This document shows, piece after piece, positions 24,739 to 60,014 of a stretch of DNA of 64,000 bases. The stretch comes from Gemmatimonadales bacterium (GTDB lineage: Bacteria > Gemmatimonadota > Gemmatimonadetes > Gemmatimonadales > Gemmatimonadaceae), in contig JBBQNT010000001.1 of the NCBI GenBank assembly GCA_038330215.1, positions 1,356 to 65,355 on the forward strand, in the 5' to 3' direction. Every line of letters begins with the position of its first letter. Within the stretch, counting starts at the first letter, position 1. The notes under the pieces were generated by a model, which saw only the letters and a program-made list of their open reading frames with translations, made no database searches and was not told the DNA's origin. Both the position numbers and the translations under genes were made by a program.

Positions 24739-24778
24739 ATCACGCGTTGCTGCATTCTCGGACCAATGAGGGGCTGCG

Positions 24779-31515: not shown

Positions 31516-33108
31516 CTACTGCACCCGGTTGCTCACGTCAGGCGGAACGTAGATGTGGCCGTGGGACGCATCCGGTCCGCTCGCCAGATCACTGCCGACC
31601 AAGATTGGTTTGATCCATATCCGACGTCGACTTGCCCGTTGTTGGCCATATGGTTGCATCCTCCAATGGCCGCGCCGCCAGTGAACGCGTACACCGCCTC
31701 CGATCTCGCCGCTTGCTTGCGCGGGAGGCCCGTCTACTTCTCCCCCTACCAAGCGAACGACAGCAAATCCGTCTGATGTAAGTGCCGAATTCAGCTTGTA
31801 GCGCTTGGCAGGACTATTCATCCATTTCGCAACGCGATCAGGTGGTGTGTCCCGACCAGGCGTGGGTTCAGGGAGATGATGCTCGATGCTTTCAAGATAA
31901 AACAGGCTGTTGAAAAGCAATGCTGCGCAGTGCCGCATCAATACCGCAGAGTCTTCGATTTCAGCACGCAGGTAAGACTTCAAAGCTCGGGAATTGTCGT
32001 CGGCGGCGGGGTCGTCCGCATCCTCTTGGAGACGGCGCTTCATCGACGCCTCGATCGCCTCAGGTACCGCCATTTGCAACTCATGGGGCAAGAGGTCGAA
32101 AAACATGCCAGGGTATCCAACCTGTCGGCCGTCGCTGTGCACTGTAACGAATCCCACTTTCAGTCGCTTCGCACCGGCAGCGTCCCAAGGCGCGTAAGCA
32201 ACGTAAGCTCCATCGACATACTCGAACGTGCCTACGGCTTCGTCAAAGGGGAGGCGGATCTGTTCTTGCAAGCCAAAGCGCACAAAGAAGGCTTCGTACG
32301 GCGTATGAAGGTCAGACAGTGTTGCGTCCTTGACATCGGTGTGCGTGAGCAATTCTGTCAATCGATCATGCAGATCAAAGATTTGCCGGCCGTTACCCTC
32401 GAACTGCGCGATCAAGGGCACCCACTTCTCGTAGCTGACAATCTTGGCGGCGGTTTCTCCCAAAGCTCCAGGCGGTACCTCGCCCCGCTTTGTTGCTGCG
32501 AATAGTCCATCCAGCATGGGATGGATGAGAGATTCACGCAGGTGCGGGTAGAAGTTGGACGCAACCATTCCGTCCGGCGTTACCCAGCCTTTGCGAGCCG
32601 CATCACGTGCTATGAACCATGAAGGCGTATTTCGCATGCGGATGGGAGCGTAAGGCGAACGCTCCTCCGCACTGCTGGCGTCGGGCGTCTGCGCAGTGGC
32701 GTGAGGTTGGTCATGTGCAAGATCGTTGACCTTTGCGAAGAGATTGGCCAGGGCCTCTTTGATCCCTTCGAGTATCGGAGCGAGTTCCTGCGCGGTAACC
32801 TTCCGCACCTCAATGCCGTGCTGTCGACCGACCTCAGCAAACGTGTTCTCAGGGGATGCGCCTTCCTCCAGCAGCAGCATTTTGGGCCACTGCTTTCGCT
32901 CGCGCCATCCCTTTGCAAACAAATGGGAGACCATCTGAATGTCGGGCGCTTCCATGCCAACTGGCGCGACGGCGCGACCGATGATGTAGGTGCTCGCCGC
33001 GTCCATCAACAAATACATATTGAACGCTCCTTCCGCCAGAAGCAGCGGCGCGTCGTTCGCTTTCACCGCGAGCCAGGCTTGATTCACTCGAAATTGGTCA
33101 GGACGCAT
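31516..33108 (-). CDS. hypothetical protein (530 aa) directly downstream of the integrase gene
   Basis: Long ORF with good composition. Conspicuous basic C-terminal motif VRVHWRRGHWRMQPYG...RRRIWIKPILVG. No family recognised. Confidence 0.65.
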   Translation of the reverse strand: MRPDQFRVNQAWLAVKANDAPLLLAEGAFNMYLLMDAASTYIIGRAVAPVGMEAPDIQMVSHLFAKGWRERKQWPKMLLLEEGASPENTFAEVGRQHGIEVRKVTAQELAPILEGIKEALANLFAKVNDLAHDQPHATAQTPDASSAEERSPYAPIRMRNTPSWFIARDAARKGWVTPDGMVASNFYPHLRESLIHPMLDGLFAATKRGEVPPGALGETAAKIVSYEKWVPLIAQFEGNGRQIFDLHDRLTELLTHTDVKDATLSDLHTPYEAFFVRFGLQEQIRLPFDEAVGTFEYVDGAYVAYAPWDAAGAKRLKVGFVTVHSDGRQVGYPGMFFDLLPHELQMAVPEAIEASMKRRLQEDADDPAADDNSRALKSYLRAEIEDSAVLMRHCAALLFNSLFYLESIEHHLPEPTPGRDTPPDRVAKWMNSPAKRYKLNSALTSDGFAVVRLVGGEVDGPPAQASGEIGGGVRVHWRRGHWRMQPYGQQRASRRRIWIKPILVGSDLASGPDASHGHIYVPPDVSNRVQ

Positions 33109-33158: not shown

Positions 33159-34361
33159 TCATGCTTTGTCGTCAGCTAGCCGCTTCGTCAGTCCTGGTGC
33201 TGGTAACGGCTGTTGTTCACGAGCGATTGCCATCGCGGTGTCCACAGTCAACAATTCTCTGGCGTAGTAGTTGACCATCGCATCGTTCGCCCAGCCGGCG
33301 GCCCGAGCGATCGCTGAACCGGAGTGACCTTGCGCGACCAGGTCATGCGTTGATCCGACGCGAGTTGAATGACCACTGATCCGGGACGCATCGATGCCGG
33401 CCTGTTGCAGGCGACGTTTGAAGATTCGCGCGACCTCCTGTGGTGCGATCGCGTTCGGGCTGATCTCGGCAGTGCGCATGGTGCGAAGCGAACCATGCTT
33501 GCGCTTCGCCTCTTTTCCGCGCTTGGCGGAGCGCAAGCGCACGGCGCGGAACAAGGGGCCACGCTCAAGGCCTGCGGCCTGGATCCAGCGATCGATGTAT
33601 TCCATCGTCGCAGCACTGACGTGGCGTAGCAGGCCGTGACCCTCGCCGTCGGTTTTTGAACTCGGGATCTCCAGCCTACCCGCGCCGCCGTCAAGACGCG
33701 TGAGTTCCGAGATCCGGACCCGTGCGATCTCCTCGCGGCGTGCCAGCGTATCGGACGCCAAGCACATCAGCGCCGCATCACGCAGGGCACGCAGATCGCC
33801 GTCAAGAGCTTGCAGCACGGCCGTCAACTGGGCCTGCCGCAATGGGGCCGCCGGCCGTTTCCGATTGCGGCCGTCCTTCGCGAGCTGGCGGGCGATGCCT
33901 TTCCAGATCAGAGTCCACATCGGATGCGCGGTGGGATCTGGCACGCCGGCGGCGCGGTGCGCCAGGCGGATGGTCGACAGGTACCGATCAAGAGTGGCGC
34001 GGCGCAAGCCTCTGTCGATCGCGTTTTGGAAGAACTGCTGCAGATCCGTTCGCGCTTTGGTTTCTGCCTTGATGCGCTCGGCCGGCGCCGTCGACGGCGC
34101 AATGTACACCAGAGGCGGGACGCCGGCGTTGCGGCACCAGGTGGCGTACGTGGTCCAGTCACCGCGTACCGCACGCACGGTGGACTCCGACATGGCGACC
34201 TCGTATTGGCGCGTAAACTCCCGCAAACGATCGGCGACTTCGGACGGCAGCAGCGGCACATGGCCATCGACGGTCATCGGCAGCAGCGCGTCGACCACTA
34301 CCAGCGCGTGATCGACGATTGCCGGTGCCGGCGAATCCAGTGCGGGCTCAGTGCTTGGCAT
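33159..34361 (-). CDS. tyrosine recombinase / phage-type integrase
   Basis: LASDTLARREEI (Arg), HSTRVGSTHDL (HxxR) and AMVNYYAR (catalytic Tyr region); SAM-like N-terminal domain. Confidence 0.85.
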   Translation of the reverse strand: MPSTEPALDSPAPAIVDHALVVVDALLPMTVDGHVPLLPSEVADRLREFTRQYEVAMSESTVRAVRGDWTTYATWCRNAGVPPLVYIAPSTAPAERIKAETKARTDLQQFFQNAIDRGLRRATLDRYLSTIRLAHRAAGVPDPTAHPMWTLIWKGIARQLAKDGRNRKRPAAPLRQAQLTAVLQALDGDLRALRDAALMCLASDTLARREEIARVRISELTRLDGGAGRLEIPSSKTDGEGHGLLRHVSAATMEYIDRWIQAAGLERGPLFRAVRLRSAKRGKEAKRKHGSLRTMRTAEISPNAIAPQEVARIFKRRLQQAGIDASRISGHSTRVGSTHDLVAQGHSGSAIARAAGWANDAMVNYYARELLTVDTAMAIAREQQPLPAPGLTKRLADDKA

Positions 34362-44415: not shown

Positions 44416-44702
44416 CGACGTGGGCCTCTTGAGCGATGCCTCGCAGCAGCGGGCTGCAGATCCTTCGCGTCGGCCAAGAGGCCGAGTTCAAACGCCCTTG
44501 CGTGTGTTTCCGGCGACAGCGCAACTTCATCTGCCGCGGCCCATCGAACCGCATCGCGCACTGCGTCGTCTCTGTTTCTATAGCGTCCGATTCCACTTTG
44601 GATGGGCTCAAACGGAGCGAAATTGTCGTGCATGAAGGCGAAGTACCCTGTCATTCCCATCGAAATGCTGATTGCTACCTTGTTTTCGTCGATATTGCTC
44701 AT
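44412..44702 (-). CDS. hypothetical small protein (96 aa)
   Basis: 4-nt overlap with the MTase gene stop. Confidence 0.5.
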   Translation of the reverse strand: MSNIDENKVAISISMGMTGYFAFMHDNFAPFEPIQSGIGRYRNRDDAVRDAVRWAAADEVALSPETHARAFELGLLADAKDLQPAAARHRSRGPRR

Positions 44703-46384
44703 AGACCAGGTGCCCTCCTTTTCGTGATGCGTTCTGCTGCAACAATCATGTGCTCAGCAACGCGCTCCCCAAGGGCAACTGCGTGCCCGAACAGAATCGA
44801 CTGCCCAAGTGCTTCATGAGCGACCGTGCTGCTGACGCCGGCGACGAGCGATTCTGGAATGCCTTTCACACGTGCGTGCTCAGTCGGCGTCAGCAAGCGC
44901 TCCAATCCATCGGCCCGAGTAAGTTGGGCTTCGGTGGATCTGCGCTTGGAGTACCCACGGCCGATACATCCAACCGTCGTCGCGTCTTCCCCTACGAGTT
45001 GTCGCTTGAAATTCTTTCCTTCAAGCGCATCGCGCGCCGCCTTCCGGTGCAAATACTCGTTCCCAGACCAGCTCGGATTATCATCGCTAACCGGTTCGAG
45101 CACCTCGCCAAGCCGAGCATACTTCCGCGCAATTTGCGGCAGTTGATCGAGACTAAATCCTTCTGCGAGACCTTCGCTCAAGCACACCATCCACCATCGC
45201 TGGCGCGACTCGATCGTGCCGGCCTGCTCGTGATCGAGCACGGTCTCGAAAATCTTGTAACGGTTCTCCGTGAGGTACGCCCGCAAGATCGCGTAGGACG
45301 CGCTGGTCGACGCGAGCGTGATGTTCTCGCTGATGATCGCGCTGGGCTGGACGGCATCGATCAGACGCAAGGCACCGAAAATTGCCAACGTGTCGGTGGG
45401 ATGATCTTCCGCGACCGCGAGCTTCCTCTTCGCTTTTCCTGAGCGCGAATGCAGAGTGCACGGTAGCGAGATGGACAGCAACGACGCCTTCGAGAGCAAG
45501 CACGGCGCCAACTCTTCGAGGCTTGCCTCGAAGAGGCGCGTAGCGCCGGTGACTGCGGGATTGTTGTCGTTCGCGATTTCGAGATAGCGCCGTTCGCGAT
45601 CGACAATCCAGTCGACGCGACTGCGCAGTCCTGCACGCTGGACGCCTTCTGAAATCGCGAGAGTAGAAACGCCGGCGCCGGCGCACAGCGTTCCCTCGGT
45701 CAAGTAACCGCGGGTCACCTGGTCGCACAGCCGCGCTTCACGCTCCGCTTTTGCCACCTCGCGCGCGGCCAGCGTGAACTGGATCTGGCCAGGACGGATG
45801 ACCGCCTGCAGGCGCATACCTTCACTGACGATCTCGCTCAGCGCTTCCGAGGCCACATCGATAATCGGTGTGGGTGCCCGATTCGCCCGAGCACGTCCTG
45901 AAACGACGCGATCGCCATCAGCGTCGATCGTCAACGTGATGGTCCGTCGTTCGAGATCGAGGACAACGGAATACGCTGCGCCCTTCTCGAATCCTGCGTC
46001 GCTCAACCGGAGGCCTTCCAGCCACACCCGGCGGCGCCCACGATGCTCGCCCACCGTTGTGTAACTCACCTGCACGGGATCGTCATTTCGGCCCACGACC
46101 TGGCCGCGCGGCATCTTGATCATCCGCACTTGCGGAAACTGTGATCGCACGTCGTCAGCGAACTCACGCATCCCGATGTTCGCCGGCCGTAGCCATCCGT
46201 CAGGACCTCGCTCGAAGCCCAGCTCGCGCAACTCCTCTGCGTACGCCTCGGCGCCGGCGCCGCGAGCGCGAAGACTGTTCACGCGATCTGCTTTTTGATC
46301 GCCACGGACGAGCTGGAACTCAAGCCGGTATCCAGACAGATCGAACCATGTCGGATCTGCCATGTTCTCTGATCGTTCGTCCAT
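44699..46384 (-). CDS. DNA (cytosine-5) methyltransferase-like protein with ~200-aa N-terminal extension
   Basis: Motif I TLCAGAGVSTLA, motif IV SLPCTLHSRSG, motif VI ISENI, motif VIII ESRQRWW, motif IX LLTPTEHARVKGIP, motif X-like GQSI. Confidence 0.75.
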   Translation of the reverse strand: MDERSENMADPTWFDLSGYRLEFQLVRGDQKADRVNSLRARGAGAEAYAEELRELGFERGPDGWLRPANIGMREFADDVRSQFPQVRMIKMPRGQVVGRNDDPVQVSYTTVGEHRGRRRVWLEGLRLSDAGFEKGAAYSVVLDLERRTITLTIDADGDRVVSGRARANRAPTPIIDVASEALSEIVSEGMRLQAVIRPGQIQFTLAAREVAKAEREARLCDQVTRGYLTEGTLCAGAGVSTLAISEGVQRAGLRSRVDWIVDRERRYLEIANDNNPAVTGATRLFEASLEELAPCLLSKASLLSISLPCTLHSRSGKAKRKLAVAEDHPTDTLAIFGALRLIDAVQPSAIISENITLASTSASYAILRAYLTENRYKIFETVLDHEQAGTIESRQRWWMVCLSEGLAEGFSLDQLPQIARKYARLGEVLEPVSDDNPSWSGNEYLHRKAARDALEGKNFKRQLVGEDATTVGCIGRGYSKRRSTEAQLTRADGLERLLTPTEHARVKGIPESLVAGVSSTVAHEALGQSILFGHAVALGERVAEHMIVAAERITKRRAPGL

Positions 46385-46389
46385 TGGTT

Positions 46390-46404
46390 TCTCTCAGTCT
46401 CTCA
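46390..46404 (-). promoter_or_regulatory. leader motif copy 3 (TGAGAGACTGAGAGA on the minus strand)
   Basis: 5 nt upstream of start 46384. Confidence 0.6.
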
Positions 46405-46413
46405 AGGTGTAGT

Positions 46414-46439
46414 GTGTGTATTGTGCTAGTATTACACAT
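46414..46439. promoter_or_regulatory. operator-like IR GTGTGTA-N12-TACACAT in the divergent promoter region
   Basis: Read directly. The minus-strand reading gives a -10-like CACAAT adjacent to ACACAC. Confidence 0.55.
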
Positions 46440-46496
46440 ATCGTGTATAACCCGCACGCGGCACCTTCCGGGTGCCCAAAAACGACCGGAGCAACC

Positions 46497-47858
46497 ATGA
46501 ATGCCATGCTGAAACCGACGAGCGAAACGCACACGGACGTCACGAATCTGGATCTGCGACGTCGGTACCCAAACAAGGGGCACGCGGCCGCCTTCCGCAA
46601 GGGCTATCAAGCCTTCGAGAATTCGAACACGCGACACCCTCCGTACGGCATCGACACGGTTGATTCACGTGCCTACCGACGGGCGTGGCTCGATGGCTAC
46701 GATGCCAGTGCGGCAGCCACTCAGCAGCTTGCTGCCGAAGCTGACCTTCAAGCTCACATCGAAACTCCGAAATGCACTGTACACACCGTCCCCATCAGCG
46801 GCACCACGCAGGCGGCCACTTGGCCACCTGTGGTCAACCAGTTCGGGATGGTCGGTCATGCTGCACTTGCAAACGTTCTCGCTGACCAGGTGGCCTATGC
46901 GCTCGCGACCGGAAAGCGCTACGCGGACCGTTTATTGGTCGGTCCGCCTGGCGTAGGCAAATCGTGCTTAGCCCGCGCAATGGCGCGTCAGTTGGTCGAC
47001 GGCGGCTGTGTATTGCTCAACGCCGCGAGTTGCCGATCTCCCGAAGAATTCATCGACGCGCTCGCCGAGCACGGGCTCTTCGATGAGGCGGAAGGCAATG
47101 ACATTCCGACCGCTAAATCGATCGTTCTTGTAGACGAGGCTCACAGCCTCTCCAAGCGCTTGAAGGACTGGCTCTTGTCGGCGACCGATGATTGTAGAGA
47201 AGCGTCCGTAAACGACCGAACGTACCGCTTCGATCACGTCACCATCTTCTTCGCGACCACGGATCCGGGAAAACTCGCGCCGGCACTGCAATCTCGGTGC
47301 GACACACTTCATCTGCGTGCGTACACGCTTGGCGAAGTAGCCGAAATCGTGCACGTGAACGCCGCGCAGCAATATCCAGGCCTGCTGCTCGACCAGACGG
47401 CCTGCCATGAGGTTGCCGCGCGTCAACGAGCGCAGCCGAGGCGTGCCGTGCGATGTGTTGGCACCGCGCTCGTACCGTTCGCTCACGGCCAACTACTTGC
47501 AGCTGGTCACATTCCCGACAACGACGCCATCGCAGCATGGCTCACCGCGGAGCGCATCGGGGCCTACTTCGATCGACAGGGCATCGACCTCAACGGCATC
47601 GACCCCATTACCCGCTCAGCACTCACTTACCTGGCTCGTAACGGAACCGTGCCTGCGCAACGATTGCGACAGGCACTGTCGCTTTCCACCGACGCCGATT
47701 TTCAGAGCGTCGACGAATATCTTGTTCGGCTGGGACTGGTCGAGATCTCAACACGAGGTCGCCGGTTGACAGACCTTGGCATCGACTATCTCCGCGCACC
47801 TGTCTGTCTGCACGGGTCGATCACGGCGCCATCAATGGACGACAGCCATGAACAATGA
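46497..47858 (+). CDS. RuvB-like AAA+ ATPase with Rmf-like N-terminal extension
   Basis: Walker A LLVGPPGVGKSCL; Walker B IVLVDEAHSL; sensor/Arg-finger FFATTDPGKLAPALQSRC; C-terminal winged helix VDEYLVRLGLVEISTRGRRLT like RuvB domain III. N-terminus AAFRKGYQAF...YRRAWLDGY. ggag SD before the internal ATG of track ORF 46416. Confidence 0.7.
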   Translation: MNAMLKPTSETHTDVTNLDLRRRYPNKGHAAAFRKGYQAFENSNTRHPPYGIDTVDSRAYRRAWLDGYDASAAATQQLAAEADLQAHIETPKCTVHTVPISGTTQAATWPPVVNQFGMVGHAALANVLADQVAYALATGKRYADRLLVGPPGVGKSCLARAMARQLVDGGCVLLNAASCRSPEEFIDALAEHGLFDEAEGNDIPTAKSIVLVDEAHSLSKRLKDWLLSATDDCREASVNDRTYRFDHVTIFFATTDPGKLAPALQSRCDTLHLRAYTLGEVAEIVHVNAAQQYPGLLLDQTACHEVAARQRAQPRRAVRCVGTALVPFAHGQLLAAGHIPDNDAIAAWLTAERIGAYFDRQGIDLNGIDPITRSALTYLARNGTVPAQRLRQALSLSTDADFQSVDEYLVRLGLVEISTRGRRLTDLGIDYLRAPVCLHGSITAPSMDDSHEQ

Positions 47859-48585
47859 GGACCTGGTCATTCGATCAGTCAGCGACGGATCTCGCGTCAC
47901 CGCTCGCCAAGTGCTTGCGATGTGCCCGAGCACGGGAGACACGACCGGCGCAGTCGAGTTGCTTCGCCGAATGGAGCGCGCCGGCAAGCTGCAGGCGTAC
48001 ACGGCTCGGCCGGGTGCCAACAAGACATTCGGTCTTCCTGAGGCTGGTTCGAAGTCGAAGTCTTCTTCCTCGACGAGAGGATCATCGCGCAGCACAGAAG
48101 TCGCTCAACACGACAAGAAAGAACCCTCGCGTCGCCGGCGGCGAAACCGGGCGACGCAGCGCGATGACGCGGCTCTCCTGGCGGCGTTCACCCACGCTGG
48201 CGGGCGCGCCACCGCTTCTGAAATGATGGCGATCGCCAGAAAGGCTGGGCTCAACGACGCTCGCCGAAAGGCGACGCTGCGACGCTTGGTCGACACCGCC
48301 CAGATCGCCGTCCAAGGGCGCACCGCAGGCGCGGTTTACTCTCTGCCGAACCACACCCGTCATCGCCACCAGGCCGCGCCTACGACGCCTGTAGCGCGGC
48401 CCGAGCAGATCCTCTTCGCCACGGTAGACCAGCAGGTTGCCTGCCTACTCGTGGCTTGCCTGCAGGCTGAGCGCATCGCGTACGCGCTGCTCCTCAAAGC
48501 CGCTTGCAAGTCCAAGGATCCCGCTGTGAAAAAACTCGCTGTGGCGGCGAAAGCACTTCGACTCAGCTCCAAGGGGATGATGTGA
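47848..48585 (+). CDS. protein with two winged-helix-like DNA-binding repeats
   Basis: VTARQVLAM...AVELLRRMERAGKLQAY...KTFGLP and ATASEMMAI...ATLRRLVDTAQIAVQG...AVYSLP, separated by a basic Ser/Arg-rich linker. 11-nt overlap with the upstream gene. Confidence 0.5.
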   Translation: MNNEDLVIRSVSDGSRVTARQVLAMCPSTGDTTGAVELLRRMERAGKLQAYTARPGANKTFGLPEAGSKSKSSSSTRGSSRSTEVAQHDKKEPSRRRRRNRATQRDDAALLAAFTHAGGRATASEMMAIARKAGLNDARRKATLRRLVDTAQIAVQGRTAGAVYSLPNHTRHRHQAAPTTPVARPEQILFATVDQQVACLLVACLQAERIAYALLLKAACKSKDPAVKKLAVAAKALRLSSKGMM

Positions 48586-48586
48586 C

Positions 48587-49132
48587 ATGAATACTGCTGA
48601 TCGCCAACACTTCATCCTCGTCAAGCGCGAGGACCATTCCTCAGCAGGCGCACGGCTGTCGGCGCGTGCTGCAGCCGACAGGCTGCTTGACGCACTCATC
48701 TGGCCACTCTGGGCTCACACGCCTTGTCGAAAGAAAGTACGCACGGGCGATGCCGTTGCCGTCTACCTCGCGGGGCCTGGCAACCGCACTGTGATCGCTA
48801 CGGCCGACGTGATTGATAAGATCGACTGGCAGAAGTCGATGCTTCGCTCGTATCCGCTCGTACTTAGCGGCACACCGACTGTCGTACTCCGGCTCGGCAA
48901 CGTTCGACGACTCGTCACCCCTCTACCGATTGCACAGCGTCTCGACGCATTGGGCTTCATCTCGCGAGGGCCAAAGTGGGGCGCTGCGTTGATGGGTGGG
49001 ATGCGATCCTTGAGTCACGGCGATTTCAGTCTCCTGACCACACCGTTGTACACCGAGCAGGGCCAACGCACCGCACCGAGCGATGAGCCTAGTCGGGACG
49101 AACCCGTCGAGAGTTTTGAGGACGTGCAATGA
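48587..49132 (+). CDS. hypothetical protein, tentatively PUA-like (EVE/ASCH-type) fold
   Basis: HFILVKRE...WPLW...VRTGDAVAVYLAGPGNRTVIATADV pattern. The resemblance is weak and by eye only. Confidence 0.4.
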   Translation: MNTADRQHFILVKREDHSSAGARLSARAAADRLLDALIWPLWAHTPCRKKVRTGDAVAVYLAGPGNRTVIATADVIDKIDWQKSMLRSYPLVLSGTPTVVLRLGNVRRLVTPLPIAQRLDALGFISRGPKWGAALMGGMRSLSHGDFSLLTTPLYTEQGQRTAPSDEPSRDEPVESFEDVQ

Positions 49133-50025
49133 ACGCCGACGCCGACACTTTGAAGTCATCGCTCGATCTGGTGTCGCAGTTGGATCGAGTGACTAACCTC
49201 TTTGTTCCGAATCCCGGTCAAAATTCGATCCTGCTCGAACTTTGCAAGCTGGTCGATGCGCCCAGTAGCAGCCGTCCCGTCAACATTGTGCTGATCGCTG
49301 AGCCGAACTTCGGCAAATCGGAAACGCTCAAGTACTTCGAGCGAAAGGTCAACCCCGAGTTCAGCTACACCAAGGAGACGACCGAAATTCCAGTCGTTCG
49401 CGTCAGCATGGTCGATGTACAAGATGCTGTAGGTTTGCTCCGCACTACACTTTCTTCAATCGGCATTCGCTACTCGGTGCGAGACCCACTCGACGAATTA
49501 TGGAGGAGATTGAAACTCCATGTCGGGCCGCTGATGCTGCGAGTCTTTGTGTTCGATGACGCTCACGCCGCCGCCGAATTGCGTGAAGCGCGACAGAAGG
49601 AACTGCTCAAGACGTTCCGCCGCTTTGGAGGCATCACCCAACGGCCCATCGCACTTGCGGGCGCAGAGACGCTTCGCTCGTTCATCGATAGTGACCGGGA
49701 ATACCGAACGCGCTTCATTCCGCTGTCCATTCCTGCGATTGCGTCCAAGTCGGACCTGCAGCGGTTCCTCAAAGGATTCGATGAACGACTGGGACTTGAT
49801 CCCACGAGCAACTTATCTCATGCAGACACGGTGGCACTCGTGCATGAACTAGTGGGCTTGGAGCTTGGCGCCGTGTGCCTTTTGATCAAGCATGCTGCCC
49901 AGACCGCCATTCGCAACGGCTCGGTATGCATCACGCCGCAGTTGCTGAAAGATGCGGTTCAGACCGTCCCCGACCTGCAGCAAGTACACCAACATAGGCG
50001 CGGCTCCTTGATGATCCGGGACTAA
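49129..50025 (+). CDS. TniB-like AAA ATPase (no transposase partner nearby)
   Basis: Walker A EPNFGKSETLKYF; IPVVRVSM; Walker B RVFVFDDAHA; PIALAGAETL...RTRFIPLSIPAIAS...FLKGFDERLGL follows the TniB pattern (from memory). Confidence 0.65.
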   Translation: MNADADTLKSSLDLVSQLDRVTNLFVPNPGQNSILLELCKLVDAPSSSRPVNIVLIAEPNFGKSETLKYFERKVNPEFSYTKETTEIPVVRVSMVDVQDAVGLLRTTLSSIGIRYSVRDPLDELWRRLKLHVGPLMLRVFVFDDAHAAAELREARQKELLKTFRRFGGITQRPIALAGAETLRSFIDSDREYRTRFIPLSIPAIASKSDLQRFLKGFDERLGLDPTSNLSHADTVALVHELVGLELGAVCLLIKHAAQTAIRNGSVCITPQLLKDAVQTVPDLQQVHQHRRGSLMIRD

Positions 50026-53867: not shown

Positions 53868-56800
53868 TCAATGCCGCATCCGACCGGCCGACGCTGCCCG
53901 CTGAGGTTGCTCCACCAGCTCGGCCTCGTCGTCGTCTGTATCGGCCTCCGGTAGGGACTCCATCTCGCCCAGGTCGGCGAGCGCCGCCTGGACATCGAAA
54001 TCGTCCAGTGTTGTGGCCTTCCGACCCGCGTCGACGCCGTACTGCGCGAGCGCTTCCACGAATCCCTGCATTCCGAGCCCCGTTGCCGACTCATTCGCCT
54101 TGGCCAACTCCACGTTGATCTCGGACTGCTCCCGGCGAAGAACAGTCAGAGCGTCTTCGTGTGGCCATCGCTCAGTCATCGCCGCTTTGACCTCGGAGAT
54201 CTCTTCCCGATTGCGGGTCAACGTGTCGCGTCCGCGGCGGATTGCGTCCGCGATCGCGGTGGCTCCGTTCTCGATACGGCGCACCATTCCGACAGGGCTC
54301 AGCGAAATGTCGATCGTCTGCAGGGGAACCAGCGTCGCCTGGCCTTTCGGCGTCAGCATCATGTAGGGCGACGCGTTGAAGCTCGTACGCAACACCACCG
54401 ACAGGCCTTCGAAATCCCCAAGCACGTGCACCTGCTTGTAGGTTTCTTTCGCTGCCGCTGTCGCAGCGATCAACAACGAGTTGCCGGCGTCTCGACGACT
54501 TGCGTACTCGCGCGACCCGACCGTCATCACGAAGGGCGGGCCGTTTCCCGCGATTTCCTCCTCGGCCTCGACTGCGGGACCAGCAAGAGCCTTCGTCTTC
54601 GGCGCTTCCGATTCCTTGCGCGCTGCAGCTGCCTCCGCAGCAGCTTGGTGACGACTGGCCCTGCTTGGCATCGCCGCGTCAATCACCGCCTGCATGTTCA
54701 GCAGCACGTTCAGCTCTCGCTCGACCCGATCAATCGTGGATCCACACAGATCCAGCCGCGACTGCCGGCTGCTTCGCTGCTGTCCCCACGCCATGCGCAA
54801 CAGGTCAAGTCGGCGCACCTCCGTGTCGACAACGCACTTTCGGCGAACCAGCGGATTGTCCGAGGCTTCCGCCTCGATCGCCTCGAACGACATCGTTCCC
54901 GAGTCCTCCGCGATCTTGCGAACCAACCCCGCACCATCGTTACCGCTCGCCAACCCTTCCATGACCTGGGCGATGAAGTTCGCCTTCAGCGTCACAAGTC
55001 GCCAGTTCCAGTCCTCCAGCATGCCCTTCGTGACGTACGTCCAGATCTCGACCTCAGGAAACTGATTGCCGTTGCGAATGATCCGGCCGTTGCGCTGAGT
55101 GACCGCGCCAGGATGAAACGGTGCATTCAGGTGATGGAGTCCCGCCAATCGGTCTTGGATGTTCGCTCCCTCCCCCATCTTCTCGGTAGAGCCGAGCAAC
55201 ACCCGGATGGTCCCCTCTCGCACACGCCTGTACATCGCGAGCTTGTCGACATCCGACTTCGCGTCGTGAATGTAGGCAATCTCGTCGCGAGGAATCCCAC
55301 GATCAACCAGCTTGGCCGTCAATGCCTCGTAGGCATTGAAGCTGATATCCGCTTTTCCGGCTCGTGGTGTCGCAAGATCGAGGAATATCGCTTGTGCACC
55401 TCGGCGATCTGACGTCTTGTGGTGAATCCGTGCAACGCAATCTGCCACCTCGCGAAGCTTCGAGCCGCCGACATCCTCGGGCAACTCAGGATAGAGGGTT
55501 CGTACGTCGAGAGCCCCACGACGCGCATCACCCAGCACACACAGGATGTTGTCTTGACCCTTCTCCGGCTTTCGCCCACTTCGTTGACGGATCTCTTCAA
55601 CGCGTGCGGCGAGCGACTCGCGCAAGCGCTGTTGAAGCTCTGTCGGCTCCACCGACACCGTATGGAAGTTCGGTGTCGGCCGATCGAAGAACGCGTTGGT
55701 GTCGGGAACTGAATCGACAAACTGCGCCAGCATGCGCACGAGTTCGGGAACGTTCCGGATCTCAGCCAGGCGGTTGACGATTCGATACCCCTTGCCCGCG
55801 GGATCCGGCTCCAGTGATTGCACCGTGTCTGCGAACTGTGCGCGCCATGCGTCGAAGTGCATGACGTTGGCTTGTTCCAGAAGTCCGGGCTGCAGGTATC
55901 GCTGCATGTTGAACACCTCGGCAACGGTGTTCGTGATCATCGATCCGGTGGCAAAAATCACCTTGCCGCCGTTCTCCTGCAGGAACCGGACTTTGGAAAG
56001 CATGTCGAAGGCGCGCTGCGACGCCGACGACGGAATACCGAGAATTTGCTCGCTGCTATGAACCTGCAGCGCCTTGAAGCGATGGGCCTCGTCTACCATG
56101 AGGGTCGTCACGCCCAGGTCGGCGAGCGTGATACGCATGTCATCCTTTTCGTCGAGGTTCATCAGCTTCGTGAGCTGCGCGCACTTGCCTGCAAGCTGCG
56201 CCTCCATCTGCTTCACACGACGCGCGTTGCCGCCTTCCTGCTGCACGGCAGCTACCTGTTCGCCGTATGCGGCAATCTCGTCCATGAGAAAGCGGACCTC
56301 CGCGTCCTTCGGCAGACGCAGCCGCTTGTACGCCTCCGGTGTCGCCAGAATCAGATCAGGCGATGTCACCTGCACGCGCCGCCAGAATCGACCTCGGCCA
56401 GACGGCGTGAGGTCTTCAGAGCGGATCGTCAGAATTCGCGCTGTTGGAAACCATCGTTTCGCCTCGCCGGCGAACTGGATGATGACGTTCTTCGGCGTCA
56501 CGACCAGGCTCTTGCCGCCGAGGACCTGGCGCAGCTTCACCGCGGTCGCGGACATCGTGGCCGTCTTCCCGAAGCCCACCGGGTGCGCGAGCAGGACGTT
56601 GTCGTCCAGCAGGCACCTCGCAAGCCCTGTCGCCTGGTGCGTCCGCAGCTGACGTGTCGTCGTCATACCTGACACGCTGATGGGAATCTGCCGATAGTCG
56701 GCAGACCGATGCGCATTGAACAGCTCGTTGTATGACGTCTCCAGCGACTTCACGCGCTCCGGCGCGTCCCACACCCAGCGCGCAAACAACTCTTTCAGCT

Positions 56801-59800
56801 CCCTCTGCTTCTCGATCGCGATTGCCGTCGCGACCTCGTCGACCACCCGCTTCTTGTCGTCCTCATCCGATGGCTTCGTGACCTTGGCCGACTTACCGTT
56901 CAGGGCGGCCTCGATCAGTTCATACGTGCGCATGCGTGGCGTGTCGTAGGTCTCCGAGCGCTGATACTTCGGAACCTTCACCTCCCAGCCTCCGGTTACC
57001 GATGAGAATGTGACGTCGAAGTGCGCCATCAGCGGGCTGGTGTCGTACACGTGGTAAAGGAAATCGCGAATGATCGCTGGCTCGATCCAGCGCATGCCTA
57101 GCGCAGCGGAGATCTCGTCCTTCGTCAGCCACTGTGGAAGGCGCTCACGCAAGGCAGCAACATTCGCGCCCAGCTCCGAATTGGCTTCGGCGGCGCGTTC
57201 GGCAATCCGCAACTTCTCACGCACATTGCCGGACAGATATCGCGCTGCGATGTCCCACTGGCCGCTCGCCGGATCTCGGAACACTTGCTCCGAAAGCTCG
57301 GCAACGCACTGGTCCCAGGCCTTGCCGGAATGCTTCGCAATCCATTCGGCGTCCACACCACCTGTTTGATCGATGCAAGCGACCAAAGCGTCTTGCACGG
57401 ACTCGCAACGCACGACGCCACGCGGCCCGATCGTCCTCGTGGTGAATATCTCGGCCTTGCCGATGAATCGGTTTTCGTCATCGAGAACTTCAAGCGCATG
57501 CACCGCGTCGAAAATAGGATCGTCTTGGAGCAGCCGACGATTCTTGTTGCGACGTCCCTCTGCTACCCGTCCATGCGCCTCGACGAACGCGGCGTATGCC
57601 TTTTCGAGTCGGTCCTGCAAGATAGCCAACTCACCGTCATCGCAACCACTCAGTTGCGCTTGAATCAGGTCCGCAACGGCATCGCGCAGAGGGATGTAGT
57701 CGCGGATGCGCTGCTCGTCGCGCCCATTCAGGCCAGTGATTCGCGTCGGCTTGCCGTTGAGCACTGCTCCGACGTCGTCGCTTCCCAAGATCGCGAATGC
57801 TCCCTCCGATCGCGGATCGAAGAACGGCCGGACATCCGGCTCTGCATCTCCGCCAGCGGCGGAGATCTCGCTCGCACTCAAGGGCCGATGAATGCCGGCC
57901 GGGACATGCTGCGGAATGATCCCGAGCCAATCCGACAGCGATCGCGGTAACCCGCCATCCGGATGGTGCCGAGTCACGCTGTTACGCACGGCGCCGTACA
58001 TTCGTTTCGACGACACCAAGTGTCCGAGGACATGACCGCGACTCGTTGCAAAGATTCCGTTCATCGTCATCGACGATTCGTCGACGCCCTCACGGACGAT
58101 GCAATCGGACCAGTCAAAATCTGCCGGCGCTTCGCCGGGCAGCCGCTTCCGAATCATCAGCAGATCCGTCGTGACATCTGTGTTCGCGTTCGACTTAAAG
58201 GCGTCCTCTGGCAATCGGAACGCTGCGACCAGGTCGCCACGCTCGTACATCGCCTCACGCACCTTCGGATTCTGACGATCGAGCGTGCCGGTACCGGTGA
58301 GGCACATCAGCACGCCCCCTGGACGCAGCTTGTCGAGCGACTTGACGATGAAGTAGTCGTGGATATACGCGTTGAGTTTCCGATAGTCCGGATCGAAGAC
58401 CTGAAAGCTACCGAACGGCACGTTTCCGATCACGAGATCGATCGACTGATCCGGAATCGCGGTCTCTTCGAACCCAGCCGCGAAGACCTTCGCCCGCGGA
58501 AACAACATGCGCAGGACTCCGGCCGTTGCAGGATCCTTCTCGACGGCGACAAAGCGCGTCGCTTCCTTGACCTGATCAGGTACGCGTGCAATGAACATTC
58601 CGGTACCAGCACCGGGCTCCAACACGCGCCCGCCAACAAATCCCGCATTCAGCGCCGCTGACCACATCGCATCGATCACTTGGTGATGCGTGTAGTGGGC
58701 GTTCATCGTACTGGCGCGCATCTGCGCGTACTCGTCGTCGCTCGCCAGCGCCCGCAACTGCTCGTTGAACGAGCGAAACAGCGCGTGCTCTTCGCTGAAC
58801 ACACCCGGCAACCCACCCCAACCGACATAGCCGATCAGCGCATCGAGGTCCTCTTCGCTCGGCTCATCTCCGCTTCGCCGAAGTCCCTGCAGGATGCGCA
58901 ACGCCTTCAGGTTCCCCTCCACCGCCATTCGATCGTTCCATGCCGACCGTAGAACACGCTCAGGTTCATCAAGGCGGTAGTTCTCTCGTCCCGACTGCGG
59001 AACATCCAGAAGCGCGGACGCGAAATCATCGTCATTGGCGAGCGTCGCCGGCTCGATCGCAGCTGCTGCAGGTTCGGACGTAGTCGTTGTGTCGACCGGC
59101 GGGGCTTTGTCCGTGCGCTGCTCCACCGGTCCGGCAGCCGCCGCTGGATCCGCATCACTGGCCGCGACGCTTTCGGGCTCTTCGTCCCGCTGCAACGCCC
59201 CGGATCCGAAACCCTGCGTCACCATGTTTCTCAGGAGCAAGTTGCCGAAGGTCCGATCAAGCCGGCGGACTTCTCCGCCCATGAGCGGGTTCTGGGTAGC
59301 GGTTTCGATGAGCGTCAACGTGCCATCGACGTTGAGGCGAAACACTGCTTCTGCGTCGATGAACGTGTCACCGTTCTGACGCCGGTAATGCGTGAACATC
59401 ACACGCTGGTGCTCGCCCGTGTGGCGACCATTCGCATCGACAGTCGGATGCGGTTGACGCTCGATCACGAGCTGCATGTACGGCGGGTTGTCGATTCGTG
59501 CGATGAAATCGAGGTTCTGATCGCGGTCGATCACGGCGATGCGTTCGGCGAGACCAAGGGCGTGCAGCAACCGGGCAGCGTCCCGCTCTGCAGGACTATG
59601 CTGCTCCTGCGCGCCGGCAACGCCGGCACGGCGCTTCAACTGCTCTGCAGGTGCCGCGCTCGTCGCTGGTGTTGGTATCGCATCGGATTCGAGCTTCGCT
59701 ACGCGCTCGTTCGTCCACACCACGAACGTCTCGCGAGGCACCTGCACGATCTGCATGAGTGGGAACGCATCGCGCACCGCTTGAAACCGGAACGCTTCGT

Positions 59801-60014
59801 CAGCACCGAACTTACGATGCCAACGCCCCGACTTTGAGTGCGGCCGCATCCCGAATGCGCTCAGCGCGTCGGCGTTCCGTTCCGTTTGTCCCCCGGCGAC
59901 CAGCACTCGCTCGCGGGAACCTCGGCTGGACACCAGGAAGAACTTCAAACCGTAGGCGGCAAGATCCACCCACGGGACCGGCGCGCTGGCCGGTGCGGTC
60001 GATTCGTTGGTCAT
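53868..60014 (-). CDS. polyvalent protein: N-terminal conserved domain, N6-adenine DNA methyltransferase, SNF2/DEAD-like helicase and long C-terminal region (2048 aa)
   Basis: MTase motif I VLEPGAGTGMF, motif IV DLVIGNVPFG. Helicase motif I LLAHPVGFGKTA, motif II LMVDEAHRFK, motif VI GAVTQRNGRIIRNGN. Confidence 0.85.
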   Translation of the reverse strand: MTNESTAPASAPVPWVDLAAYGLKFFLVSSRGSRERVLVAGGQTERNADALSAFGMRPHSKSGRWHRKFGADEAFRFQAVRDAFPLMQIVQVPRETFVVWTNERVAKLESDAIPTPATSAAPAEQLKRRAGVAGAQEQHSPAERDAARLLHALGLAERIAVIDRDQNLDFIARIDNPPYMQLVIERQPHPTVDANGRHTGEHQRVMFTHYRRQNGDTFIDAEAVFRLNVDGTLTLIETATQNPLMGGEVRRLDRTFGNLLLRNMVTQGFGSGALQRDEEPESVAASDADPAAAAGPVEQRTDKAPPVDTTTTSEPAAAAIEPATLANDDDFASALLDVPQSGRENYRLDEPERVLRSAWNDRMAVEGNLKALRILQGLRRSGDEPSEEDLDALIGYVGWGGLPGVFSEEHALFRSFNEQLRALASDDEYAQMRASTMNAHYTHHQVIDAMWSAALNAGFVGGRVLEPGAGTGMFIARVPDQVKEATRFVAVEKDPATAGVLRMLFPRAKVFAAGFEETAIPDQSIDLVIGNVPFGSFQVFDPDYRKLNAYIHDYFIVKSLDKLRPGGVLMCLTGTGTLDRQNPKVREAMYERGDLVAAFRLPEDAFKSNANTDVTTDLLMIRKRLPGEAPADFDWSDCIVREGVDESSMTMNGIFATSRGHVLGHLVSSKRMYGAVRNSVTRHHPDGGLPRSLSDWLGIIPQHVPAGIHRPLSASEISAAGGDAEPDVRPFFDPRSEGAFAILGSDDVGAVLNGKPTRITGLNGRDEQRIRDYIPLRDAVADLIQAQLSGCDDGELAILQDRLEKAYAAFVEAHGRVAEGRRNKNRRLLQDDPIFDAVHALEVLDDENRFIGKAEIFTTRTIGPRGVVRCESVQDALVACIDQTGGVDAEWIAKHSGKAWDQCVAELSEQVFRDPASGQWDIAARYLSGNVREKLRIAERAAEANSELGANVAALRERLPQWLTKDEISAALGMRWIEPAIIRDFLYHVYDTSPLMAHFDVTFSSVTGGWEVKVPKYQRSETYDTPRMRTYELIEAALNGKSAKVTKPSDEDDKKRVVDEVATAIAIEKQRELKELFARWVWDAPERVKSLETSYNELFNAHRSADYRQIPISVSGMTTTRQLRTHQATGLARCLLDDNVLLAHPVGFGKTATMSATAVKLRQVLGGKSLVVTPKNVIIQFAGEAKRWFPTARILTIRSEDLTPSGRGRFWRRVQVTSPDLILATPEAYKRLRLPKDAEVRFLMDEIAAYGEQVAAVQQEGGNARRVKQMEAQLAGKCAQLTKLMNLDEKDDMRITLADLGVTTLMVDEAHRFKALQVHSSEQILGIPSSASQRAFDMLSKVRFLQENGGKVIFATGSMITNTVAEVFNMQRYLQPGLLEQANVMHFDAWRAQFADTVQSLEPDPAGKGYRIVNRLAEIRNVPELVRMLAQFVDSVPDTNAFFDRPTPNFHTVSVEPTELQQRLRESLAARVEEIRQRSGRKPEKGQDNILCVLGDARRGALDVRTLYPELPEDVGGSKLREVADCVARIHHKTSDRRGAQAIFLDLATPRAGKADISFNAYEALTAKLVDRGIPRDEIAYIHDAKSDVDKLAMYRRVREGTIRVLLGSTEKMGEGANIQDRLAGLHHLNAPFHPGAVTQRNGRIIRNGNQFPEVEIWTYVTKGMLEDWNWRLVTLKANFIAQVMEGLASGNDGAGLVRKIAEDSGTMSFEAIEAEASDNPLVRRKCVVDTEVRRLDLLRMAWGQQRSSRQSRLDLCGSTIDRVERELNVLLNMQAVIDAAMPSRASRHQAAAEAAAARKESEAPKTKALAGPAVEAEEEIAGNGPPFVMTVGSREYASRRDAGNSLLIAATAAAKETYKQVHVLGDFEGLSVVLRTSFNASPYMMLTPKGQATLVPLQTIDISLSPVGMVRRIENGATAIADAIRRGRDTLTRNREEISEVKAAMTERWPHEDALTVLRREQSEINVELAKANESATGLGMQGFVEALAQYGVDAGRKATTLDDFDVQAALADLGEMESLPEADTDDDEAELVEQPQRAASAGRMRH

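What the first reader, a model, noticed from the sequence alone, without database searches (positions are those of the whole stretch)
46497..50025. Tightly coupled four-gene operon: RuvB-like AAA+ / dual winged-helix / PUA-like / orphan TniB-like AAA, a candidate undescribed module
The four genes overlap or abut: an 11-nt overlap, a 1-nt gap and a 4-nt overlap. They are transcribed divergently from the C5-MTase operon out of an operator-bearing region. Gene 1 has all RuvB hallmarks (Walker A and B, SRC arginine finger, domain-III-like winged helix) plus an Rmf-like N-terminal extension. Gene 2 has two winged-helix repeats, an architecture reminiscent of iteron-binding Rep initiators. Gene 3 is tentatively a PUA/EVE-like fold, which in other contexts reads modified bases. 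Gene 4 follows the TniB/TnsC pattern but has no TniA, TnsB or TniQ partner anywhere in the window. No nuclease or recombinase is evident. I know of no described system that combines two different AAA+ ATPases with DNA binders and sits next to methyltransferases. It could be a replication/loader module of the element, a domesticated transposition-targeting ATPase, or a modification-sensing defence or anti-defence system.
Basis: partly seen in the sequence, partly recalled or inferred. Interest (0 to 1): 0.66.

Follow-up and report, generated by a model that had tools for sequence, protein, structure and literature searches.

The report
Mosaic operon, not a four-gene system
Four tightly packed genes on a conjugative element (a RuvB-like motor, its DNA-binding partner, a reader of modified DNA bases and a transposon-type ATPase without a transposase) are real, but only the first two travel together elsewhere, so this is a patchwork of accessory genes, not one new machine.

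Summary
Four + strand ORFs (46497-47858, 47848-48585, 48587-49132, 49129-50025) show coding-type base composition, ribosome-binding sites, and the stated 11-nt overlap, 1-nt gap and 4-nt overlap. They diverge from a C5 methyltransferase gene.

Three of the four domain calls survive. Gene 1 is RuvB-like by sequence and fold but is not a RuvB orthologue. Gene 3 is an EVE/PUA-like domain, shown by family profile only. Gene 4 is TniB/TnsC-family, and no TniA or TniQ is in the window. The dual winged-helix call for gene 2 could not be verified.

- Ten loci with gene 3 homologues lack genes 1, 2 and 4.
- Four loci with gene 1 homologues lack genes 3 and 4.
- One of the two relatives of gene 4, a truncated copy, follows a RepA gene. 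Nothing is known about the gene upstream of the other relative.

Only genes 1 and 2 recur as a translationally coupled pair. This was seen in two other elements, once in the opposite order.

Best reading: a mosaic accessory operon in a methyltransferase- and anti-restriction-rich region. It holds one undescribed two-gene unit (RuvB-like ATPase plus DNA-binding partner), a standalone EVE gene common on mobile elements, and an orphan TniB-like ATPase.

The parts
44699..46384 (-). Divergently transcribed C5 cytosine DNA methyltransferase (561 aa) with an N-terminal extension of about 230 aa. This is context, not part of the operon.
   Evidence: PF00145 48.3 bits. PADLOC DruM/DrmMII/MTase_II-type cytosine methylase models, about 1e-11. 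Its N-terminus resembles that of the 2048-aa methylase/helicase (z 5.8).
46385..46496 (.). 112-bp divergent intergenic region, locally AT-rich (41% GC over 46400-46455). It holds GTGTA at 46407, 46416 and 46443, TACAC at 46433, and a GGCACC-N5-GGTGCC hairpin at about 46459-46475. It is the presumed promoter and control region for both transcription units.
   Evidence: Sequence. Four GTGTA/TACAC copies against 0.11 expected, Poisson P about 6e-6. TRF array at 46407-46425. No consensus sigma-70 promoter was called, so function is inferred, not shown.
46497..47858 (+). g1: RuvB-like AAA+ ATPase, 453 aa. Residues 1-117 are a non-conserved extension with a weak Rmf-like motif. Residues about 118-335 are the AAA+ base and lid: Walker A GPPGVGKS at 149-156, Walker B VDEAH at 212-216, sensor-1 ATTDPG, arginine finger in an SRC motif at 266-268, sensor-2 PRRAVR. 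Residues about 366-436 are a RuvB_C-type winged helix.
   Evidence: Pfam and NCBIfam. PDB phmmer RuvB 2.5e-11 over residues 134-435. Family alignment. AF2 model with pLDDT 70-94 for residues 118-436. Foldseek: 34 of the top 36 matches are RuvB, best E 5e-16, target-normalised TM 0.54-0.64.
47848..48585 (+). g2: 245-aa partner of g1. It has two units of about 60 aa with a winged-helix-like pattern (residues 1-62 and 105-167, the latter ending in a conserved GRTxxAxYxL), joined by a basic Ser/Arg-rich linker, then a conserved C-terminal helix (about 190-240, AER...LL.A..S.D...LA.A).
   Evidence: Homologue immediately downstream of the g1 homologue in L004 with a 4-nt overlap: BLASTP 2e-10, Smith-Waterman z 14, each of three segments significant. 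Homologue immediately upstream of the g1 homologue in L005 with a 4-nt overlap: z 7.3-7.7. The fold is unverified.
48587..49132 (+). g3: standalone EVE (PUA-like) domain protein, 181 aa. The domain spans residues about 5-152 and is followed by an acidic tail. Conserved aromatic residues W39, Y60, W81 and W131 are candidates for a base-binding pocket.
   Evidence: Exhaustive phmmer found 375 representatives, most of those listed 150-170 aa. 31 of 80 members hit Pfam EVE. The family profile hits UPF0310 structures 2p5d (6e-13) and 1wmm (4e-6). A Vibrio pSEA2 homologue is annotated as an EVE domain protein. Invariant columns.
49129..50025 (+). g4: orphan TniB/TnsC-family AAA+ ATPase, 298 aa. Walker A is AEPNFGKS (57-64). 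Walker B is FVFDDAH, that is DD where DE is usual. No transposase or TniQ partner is present.
   Evidence: PF05621 81.2 bits. Profile against VchTnsC 5e-5 over residues 24-278. Canonical plasmid TniB proteins are only 25-28% identical and sit next to TniA, with TniQ in one of the three loci read. No TniA or TniQ in the window. Only one full-length relative, P0003 at 67% identity, plus one truncated copy.

Best explanation
The cluster is a genuine, probably co-translated operon, but it is an evolutionary mosaic of three independent units carried in the accessory region of a conjugative element. That region is rich in DNA-modification and anti-restriction genes.

Unit 1 (g1 and g2) is the only co-inherited part. 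It is a RuvB-like AAA+ ATPase with all catalytic motifs intact, paired with a dedicated partner protein. I infer that g1 forms a ring-shaped dsDNA translocase or remodeller. I infer that g2 binds DNA through two winged-helix-like units, binds the motor through its conserved C-terminal helix, and so brings the motor to DNA. This would be functionally analogous to RuvA recruiting RuvB, although g2 is not related to RuvA.

Unit 2 (g3) is a standalone EVE-domain reader of modified bases. It belongs to a family scattered over plasmids, integrative elements and prophages, with no fixed neighbour. Here it sits beside the element's own C5 methyltransferases. I infer that it binds 5-methylcytosine or another modified base on the element's DNA, most plausibly to mask it from modification-dependent restriction in new hosts.

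Unit 3 (g4) is a TniB/TnsC-type DNA-binding ATPase that has lost its transposase context. Its role is open.

Shown: gene structure, family membership, and the pattern of co-occurrence. Inferred: oligomeric state, DNA binding by g2, the ligand of g3, and any cooperation among the three units.
For: Gene structure.

g1 identity.

g1-g2 linkage. In L004 (g1 50% identical) the next gene overlaps by 4 nt and is a g2 homologue. In L005 (g1 52% identical) a g2 homologue lies upstream with a 4-nt overlap. The pair is therefore kept in both gene orders while the flanking genes differ.

g3 independence. Ten loci (L002, L003, L011-L016, L018, L020) carry g3 homologues of 35-58% identity with no g1, g2 or g4 match. 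An all-against-all comparison of eight of these loci finds the EVE gene to be the only gene they share.

g3 contexts are mobile-element accessory or anti-defence regions:
- The closest homologue, P0004, lies among Macro, RdgC, a DinG-like helicase, AcrVA2-like, N6/N4 methylase and Eco57I genes.
- L014 and L015 carry an ArdC/SprT-like gene also present in the window.
- L012 has DpdA; pSEA2 has DndB and a cytosine methylase.

g4. Family membership rests. The truncated relative lies beside RepA_C. No transposase is present.

No known defence system matches any of the four proteins.
Against: Sampling is thin for g1, g2 and g4. There are only five g1 relatives and two g4 relatives, and most lie on contigs shorter than 2.5 kb. 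The gene upstream of the 67%-identical g4 relative (at least 268 aa, 4-nt overlap) could not be read, so a g3-g4 or g2-g4 link in that element is not excluded.

The word-index search missed g3 homologues that the exhaustive search then found. Relatives of g1, g2 and g4 may be under-counted in the same way.

The tight coupling of all four genes (overlaps of 11 and 4 nt, gap of 1 nt) is compatible with functional cooperation in this particular element.

The g2 fold, DNA binding by g2 and the g3 ligand are untested. The 'shield against modification-dependent restriction' idea is inference from context only.
Confidence: 0.6

Rival explanations
1. All four proteins form one integrated, previously undescribed system. 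This could be a modification-sensing defence or anti-defence machine in which the EVE protein senses modified DNA and two different AAA+ ATPases act on it.
For: Translational coupling of all four genes. Position next to C5 methyltransferases. EVE domains serve as sensors in modification-dependent restriction (PMC7641849, PMC7897488). One g1 relative, P0157, has a long N-terminal extension with a PD-(D/E)xK-like motif, which hints at nuclease-coupled relatives (untested).
Against: No co-occurrence in any other locus examined: ten g3 loci, four g1 loci and two g4 loci. No nuclease or other effector is in the operon. There is no PADLOC match. The EVE family has no conserved neighbour at all.
Confidence: 0.1
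2. The operon, or at least g1, g2 and g4, is a replication or DNA-loading module of the element. On this reading g1 is an ORC/clamp-loader-like initiator or loader ATPase, g2 is an origin-binding protein and g4 is a loader-type ATPase.
For: g1 carries a clamp-loader-type SRC arginine finger, and its best PHROG hit is 'clamp loader of DNA polymerase' (9.6e-16). An AAA+ domain followed by a C-terminal winged helix is also the Orc1/Cdc6 layout (established knowledge). The truncated g4 relative in L001 follows a RepA_C replication gene. More distant RuvB-like genes on integrative elements sit beside an HTH protein and a tyrosine integrase.
Against: There is no iteron array or long direct repeat in or near the operon. 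The fold search puts RuvB ahead of clamp-loader subunits. No g1 or g2 relative was found by protein search (tblastn) in 72,556 plasmids, where replication modules would be expected to recur; the DNA search covered the operon as a whole. g4 is not kept with g1-g2 elsewhere.
Confidence: 0.15
3. g1-g2 assists recombination of the element. The RuvB-like motor would branch-migrate or resolve the Holliday-junction intermediates made by the element's tyrosine integrase, or process conjugative DNA, with g2 replacing RuvA as the junction- or DNA-binding adaptor.
For: The closest fold and sequence relative is RuvB across all three domains. Distant RuvB-like genes P0162 and P0166 lie two genes from tyrosine integrases in two different element families. 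The window encodes an integrase at 33159-34361.
Against: The integrase is about 12 kb away from the operon. g2 shows no similarity to RuvA. In L004 the pair lies among helicase, Mom and RecJ-like genes, not beside an integrase.
Confidence: 0.15

Closest known systems
RuvB, with RuvA (Holliday-junction branch-migration motor)
   Same: The layout has the same three domains: AAA+ base, lid and C-terminal winged helix. All ATPase motifs are present. RuvB is the best match by sequence (2.5e-11) and by fold (5e-16). Like RuvB, g1 has a dedicated adjacent partner gene.
   Different: g1 scores 66-75 bits against RuvB equivalog cut-offs of 282-299. Its arginine finger lies in a clamp-loader-type SRC motif. 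It has a non-conserved N-terminal extension of 117 residues. Its partner g2 is unrelated to RuvA. It is encoded on a mobile element, and only five relatives were found.
TniB / TnsC / MuB transposition target-selection ATPases (Tn5053/Tn402, Tn7-like, CAST)
   Same: g4 matches Pfam TniB well above threshold (81 bits). Its profile aligns to VchTnsC over almost its full length. A Walker A motif is present.
   Different: No TniA/TnsB transposase or TniQ is in the window. g4 is only 25-28% identical to TniB proteins that do sit in transposons. Walker B reads DD instead of DE. Only two relatives were found, one of them truncated.
Standalone EVE / UPF0310 proteins (PH1033, MJECL36) and EVE sensor domains of modification-dependent restriction enzymes such as VcaM4I
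   Same: The g3 family profile matches UPF0310 structures and Pfam EVE. g3 has the same size and single-domain architecture. MJECL36 carries a locus name of the large extrachromosomal element of M. jannaschii (own knowledge).
   Different: g3 itself falls below every library threshold. It is not fused or linked to a nuclease. Its family is found on bacterial conjugative elements and prophages next to varied DNA-modification and anti-defence genes, a context not covered in the EVE survey PMC7641849, whose text contains neither 'plasmid' nor 'conjugat'.
Anti-defence gene islands of conjugative plasmids and ICEs (ArdC, orphan methylases, Acr-like genes)
   Same: The window region from 30 to 62 kb holds an ArdC/SprT-like gene, DUF5623, two C5 methylases, a 2048-aa methylase/SNF2 helicase, an ankyrin protein and an AcrVA2-like relative. 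The closest g3 homologue lies in a similar island.
   Different: No anti-defence activity is known for any of the four proteins. The position relative to oriT was not determined, so whether this is a 'leading region' is not known.

Membership tests
RuvB (orthologue) | AAA+ core with Walker A, Walker B, sensor 1, arginine finger and sensor 2 | tested here: met
   GPPGVGKS, VDEAH, ATTDPG, SRC and PRRAVR are conserved in the family alignment. Pfam AAA 2.4e-13.
RuvB (orthologue) | Three-domain architecture ending in the RuvB_C winged helix | tested here: met
   PF05491 26.5 bits against a cut-off of 24.7. In the Foldseek search, 34 of the top 36 matches are RuvB chains aligned over about 320-340 columns.
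RuvB (orthologue) | Score above the curated equivalog cut-off (TIGR00635, NF000868) | tested here: not met
   66.1 and 75.4 bits against cut-offs of 299 and 282.
RuvB (orthologue) | Works with RuvA (adjacent ruvA, or a RuvA-like partner) | tested here: not met
   The adjacent partner g2 has no similarity to RuvA or to any PDB or Pfam entry. Interaction with the host RuvA is not testable here.
TniB/TnsC transposition ATPase | Sequence membership (Pfam PF05621 above the gathering score) | tested here: met
   81.2 bits against 22.4. VchTnsC 5e-5 over residues 24-278.
TniB/TnsC transposition ATPase | Encoded with a DDE transposase (TniA/TnsB) and a TniQ/TnsD targeting protein | tested here: not met
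   tblastn of TniA and TniQ from three plasmid transposons against the window gave nothing below E 0.05. No such Pfam domain was found in the larger window ORFs scanned.
TniB/TnsC transposition ATPase | Canonical Walker B (hhhhDE) for ATP hydrolysis | tested here: inconclusive
   g4 and P0003 both read F(V/I)FDDAH. The consequence for hydrolysis is unknown.
EVE (PUA-like) domain | Profile-level match to Pfam EVE PF01878 | tested here: met
   g3 alone gives no hit. 31 of 80 aligned family members match EVE, best E 3.9e-7.
EVE (PUA-like) domain | Match to solved EVE/UPF0310 structures | tested here: met
   The family profile hits 2p5d (MJECL36) at 6e-13 over residues 33-153 and 1wmm (PH1033) at 4e-6.
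EVE (PUA-like) domain | Binds a modified base (for example 5mC) in a conserved aromatic pocket | not testable with these tools
   W39 and W81 are invariant, and Y60 and W131 nearly invariant. This is compatible with a pocket but is not a test.
Winged-helix DNA-binding proteins / iteron-binding Rep initiators (g2) | Recognisable winged-helix fold, present twice | tested here: inconclusive
   No library or PDB hit. The AF2 single-sequence model has pLDDT 52. Foldseek found nothing with E below 4. Internal-repeat z is 2.3-3.4.
Winged-helix DNA-binding proteins / iteron-binding Rep initiators (g2) | Iterons near the gene | tested here: not met
   There is no iteron-like array, only a short GTGTA cluster in the promoter region.
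Known anti-phage defence systems (PADLOC-DB 2.0) | Any component matching a system model | tested here: not met
   g2, g3 and g4 give no hits. g1 gives only P-loop-level hits with E at or above 4e-4.
   The four-gene set was found in none of 16 further loci carrying a homologue of at least one of the genes (the P0003 contig could not be read). Only g1 with g2 recur together, in L004 and L005.

The most novel reading that the evidence does not exclude
Two separate novelties may be hidden in the mosaic.

(1) The standalone EVE family could be a new class of anti-restriction protein. Elements that methylate their own cytosines would carry it to cover 5mC or other modified bases and so escape modification-dependent (type IV) restriction after transfer.

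(2) g1-g2 could be a new mobile-element DNA motor: a RuvB-like ring recruited by a non-RuvA adaptor. In this element it may have been combined with the EVE reader and the TniB-like ATPase into a working, modification-guided DNA-handling unit.
Probability: 0.15. Interest if true: 0.7.

Novelty: new variant of a known kind. Interest (0 to 1): 0.33.

Why it matters
If the four genes had formed one conserved system, it would have been a new type of machine with two ATPases and a modified-base reader. The evidence says they do not.

Two smaller leads remain.

First, a RuvB-like motor with its own non-RuvA partner is carried by a rare group of conjugative elements. It could show how mobile elements remodel or process their DNA independently of host RuvAB.

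Second, a moderately large family of standalone EVE proteins (375 clusters at 50% identity) recurs in the DNA-modification and anti-defence islands of plasmids, ICEs and prophages. This family was not picked up by Pfam for the window protein. It gives a directly testable hypothesis for how self-methylating elements cope with modification-dependent restriction.

The orphan TniB-like gene adds a case of a transposition ATPase found outside any transposon.

Tried and rejected
- Direct library scans of g2 and g3 (Pfam, NCBIfam, PADLOC, PHROGs, PDB sequences) gave nothing.
- The word-index homologue search found only self for g3 and one relative for g4. It missed relatives of 57% identity that the exhaustive search later found, so its negatives are weak.
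- DNA (blastn) search of the operon as a whole against plasmids: no match. tblastn of g2 against plasmids: no match. tblastn of g1 against plasmids and phages: only true RuvB, DnaX and similar genes.
- Genome-contig scan with the g4 alignment: nothing. Viral-contig scans with the g1 and g4 alignments: nothing.
- The metagenome scan gave only a truncated g4 copy. DNA of the contig that carries P0003 was not available.
- The 23-sequence g3 alignment was too divergent for a locus scan.
The single-sequence model was poor and its fold search uninformative. Profiles of two and three g2 sequences found nothing in the PDB.
- The small HTH proteins beside distant RuvB-like genes are not detectably related to g2.
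- A weak TniQ hit at 47810-48043 is out of frame with g2 and was rejected as noise.
- Literature searches for RuvB-like ATPases on ICEs and for orphan TniB-like proteins found nothing relevant.
- The consensus scans found no sigma-70 promoter in the intergenic region and no convincing terminator after g4.

Full report

Yes. One search lists four + strand ORFs. g1 is open from GTG 46416, but its most likely start is ATG 46497, and it ends at 47858. g2 starts at ATG 47848 and ends at 48585. g3 is 48587-49132 and g4 is 49129-50025. The junctions are exactly as stated: an 11-nt overlap, a 1-nt gap and a 4-nt overlap.

All four ORFs have the GC pattern by codon position (about 0.65, 0.40-0.55, 0.65-0.71) that the topoisomerase and the large helicase gene of the same window show. 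g1, g3 and g4 have clear purine-rich Shine-Dalgarno-like motifs at the right distance; that of g2 is weak.

The upstream gene 44699-46384 on the minus strand is a C5 cytosine methyltransferase, so the divergent arrangement is real. The 112-bp spacer is locally AT-rich. It holds four GTGTA/TACAC copies against 0.11 expected and a GGCACC/GGTGCC hairpin. The consensus scan called no sigma-70 promoter there. "Operator-bearing" is therefore plausible but untested.

**2. What are the four proteins?**

*g1 (453 aa).* It matches AAA (2.4e-13) and RuvB_C (26.5 bits, just above the cut-off). It is below the cut-off for RuvB_N. Its best NCBIfam hits are the two RuvB equivalogs, but at 66-75 bits against cut-offs of 282-299. 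The PDB sequence search puts RuvB first (2.5e-11 over residues 134-435).

An AlphaFold model built on six family sequences is confident for residues 118-436. In the Foldseek search, 34 of its top 36 matches are RuvB, followed by clamp-loader subunits.

The family alignment shows Walker A, Walker B, sensor 1, an arginine finger and sensor 2. The arginine finger sits in an SRC motif, which is the clamp-loader form; the more distant RuvB-type relatives have RDRF at that position.

The first 117 residues are not conserved among relatives and are modelled with low confidence. The Rmf match is sub-threshold (E 0.027).

g1 is therefore RuvB-like. It is not a RuvB orthologue.

*g4 (298 aa).* It matches Pfam TniB at 81 bits. 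With its one full-length relative, its profile aligns to Vibrio cholerae TnsC over almost the whole length (5e-5). Plasmid TniB proteins are only 25-28% identical. In the three loci read they sit beside a Mu-type transposase, with TniQ present in one of them. No TniA or TniQ relative is in the window. Walker B reads DD instead of DE in both g4 and P0003.

*g3 (181 aa).* It has no direct hit in any library. An exhaustive phmmer search found 375 cluster representatives, and most of those listed are 150-170 aa. Of 80 aligned members, 31 match Pfam EVE. The family profile hits the solved UPF0310 proteins MJECL36 (6e-13) and PH1033 (4e-6). A Vibrio pSEA2 homologue is annotated as an EVE domain protein.

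*g2 (245 aa).* It has no hit anywhere. Its single-sequence model is poor (pLDDT 52) and finds no structural neighbour. The two proposed winged-helix units align to each other in a sensible register, but only weakly (z 2.3-3.4). The dual winged-helix idea is not refuted, and it is not shown either.

**3. Are the four genes a module?**

*g3.* Homologues of 35-58% identity were recovered with flanks of up to 10 kb from several sources:
- an Ahniella affigens plasmid (L002);
- Vibrio pSEA2 (L003);
- six loci from five metagenome-assembled genomes and the Aliidiomarina maris isolate (L011-L016);
- a viral contig (L018);
- a 273-kb metagenome contig carrying the closest homologue, P0004 (L020).

None of these loci contains a g1, g2 or g4 relative. 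An all-against-all comparison of the ORFs in eight of the loci shows that the EVE gene is the only gene they share. The contexts are accessory regions of mobile elements:
- Macro, RdgC, a DinG-like helicase, AcrVA2-like, N6/N4 methylase and Eco57I around P0004;
- an ArdC/SprT-like gene in L014 and L015, also present in the window;
- DpdA and an integrase in L012;
- a nuclease, RecT and SMC recombination set in L016;
- dTMP kinase in L002;
- DndB and a cytosine methylase in pSEA2.

*g1.* It has five relatives of 42-52% identity. None of their four loci has g3 or g4.

*g4.* It has one full-length relative (67% identity). The upstream gene there is at least 268 aa long, but its DNA could not be fetched, so its identity is unknown. 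A second, truncated copy follows a RepA_C replication gene.

**4. What is conserved?**

The g1-g2 pair. In L004 the gene that overlaps the g1 homologue by 4 nt is a g2 homologue. The evidence is BLASTP 2e-10 and a Smith-Waterman score of 146 against 42 +/- 7 for shuffles. The N-terminal unit, the middle unit and the C-terminal helix are each significant on their own.

In L005 a g2 homologue lies upstream of the g1 homologue, again with a 4-nt overlap (z 7.3-7.7). So the pair persists in both gene orders while the neighbours differ. This argues for a functional link and against mere synteny. In L007 the downstream gene is a radical SAM enzyme, and what lies upstream is unknown.

More distant RuvB-like genes (28-30% identity) on integrative elements are followed by a conserved HTH protein of about 150 aa and a tyrosine integrase. 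That small protein is not detectably related to g2.

**5. How it most likely works**

*Shown.* The gene structure, the family memberships, and which genes travel together.

*Inferred.*
- g1, like RuvB, assembles into a ring that translocates on or remodels double-stranded DNA using ATP.
- g2 binds DNA through its two small units and binds g1 through its conserved C-terminal helix. It would thereby act as RuvA does for RuvB, while being unrelated to RuvA.
- g3 binds a modified base. The element encodes at least two C5 methylases and a large methylase/helicase. The simplest ligand is therefore 5-methylcytosine on the element's own DNA. The most attractive role is masking it from modification-dependent restriction in new hosts.
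- g4 is a DNA-binding ATPase of the target-selection type without a transposase. Its role is open.

I put about 0.6 on the mosaic reading. I put much less on any specific biochemical role.

*Rivals.*
- A true four-protein system, about 0.1.
- A replication or loader module, about 0.15. There are no iterons, and no g1 or g2 relatives were found by protein search in 72,556 plasmids.
- A recombination helper for the integrase, about 0.15.

**6. Comparison with known systems, and novelty**

No described system matches. PADLOC gives nothing and the literature searches found nothing relevant. The parts belong to known families.

The new elements are these:
- a RuvB-like motor with a non-RuvA partner;
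- a mobile-element clade of standalone EVE proteins that lies below Pfam detection for this member;
- an orphan TniB-like ATPase.

That makes the finding a new variant of known kinds, not a new kind of system. Interest is moderate to low (0.33). The EVE anti-restriction hypothesis and the g1-g2 motor are the leads worth following.

Noticed in passing
window 44699-46384 (-) and 53868-60014 (-): The N-terminal 95-170 residues of the C5 methyltransferase and of the 2048-aa methylase/SNF2 helicase resemble each other (W.DL..Y.L.F.LV ... VR..FP; Smith-Waterman z 5.8). This may be a shared N-terminal module of unknown role on two DNA-modifying proteins of the same element.
   Followed up: partly
L006 22-2157 (P0157): This g1 relative (711 aa) has an N-terminal extension of about 370 aa with a PD-(D/E)xK-like motif (CDLLAL...EFIIEAVEVKT). 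That hints that some members of this ATPase family are fused to a nuclease. There is no Pfam support.
   Followed up: no
L025-L031: Two families of more distant RuvB-like ATPases (P0162 and P0166, about 320 aa) share a conserved arrangement on integrative elements: RuvB-like gene, a conserved HTH protein of about 150 aa (z 52 between the two families), then a tyrosine integrase.
   Followed up: partly
window 31516-33108 (-): This 530-aa ORF has no Pfam hit. It is nevertheless homologous (1e-17) to the AcrVA2-like protein of L020, so it is a possible anti-CRISPR-type gene on the element.
   Followed up: no
window 30576-31469 (-), 16398-17807 (+), 22836-23942 (+): Further cargo on the element: a Peptidase_U49 (Lit-like) protein, a protein with a HipA C-terminal (kinase-type) domain, and an RNase_T-family exonuclease.
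   Followed up: no
window 10350-12160 (+): Two overlapping ORFs carry a Toprim domain (10350-11123) and a fragment of Topoisom_bac (11045-12160). This looks like a second, frameshifted or split type IA topoisomerase, in addition to the intact one at 17941-20205.
   Followed up: no
window 19718-19814 (+): ARAGORN calls a 97-nt tRNA-Val inside the topoisomerase III ORF. It is probably a false positive.
   Followed up: no
L001 79-968: A truncated g4-like gene (residues 20-82 only, 63% identity) directly follows a RepA_C plasmid replication gene on a 1.4-kb metagenome contig.
   Followed up: partly
L002 (Ahniella affigens plasmid NZ_CP027861): This plasmid shares several distant homologues with the window: a T2SS/T4P ATPase, a lytic transglycosylase, the 24770-26074 protein and the EVE gene. 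It also carries MobI(A/C) and type IVB pilus genes. This suggests the window's element belongs to the same broad group of conjugative elements.
   Followed up: partly
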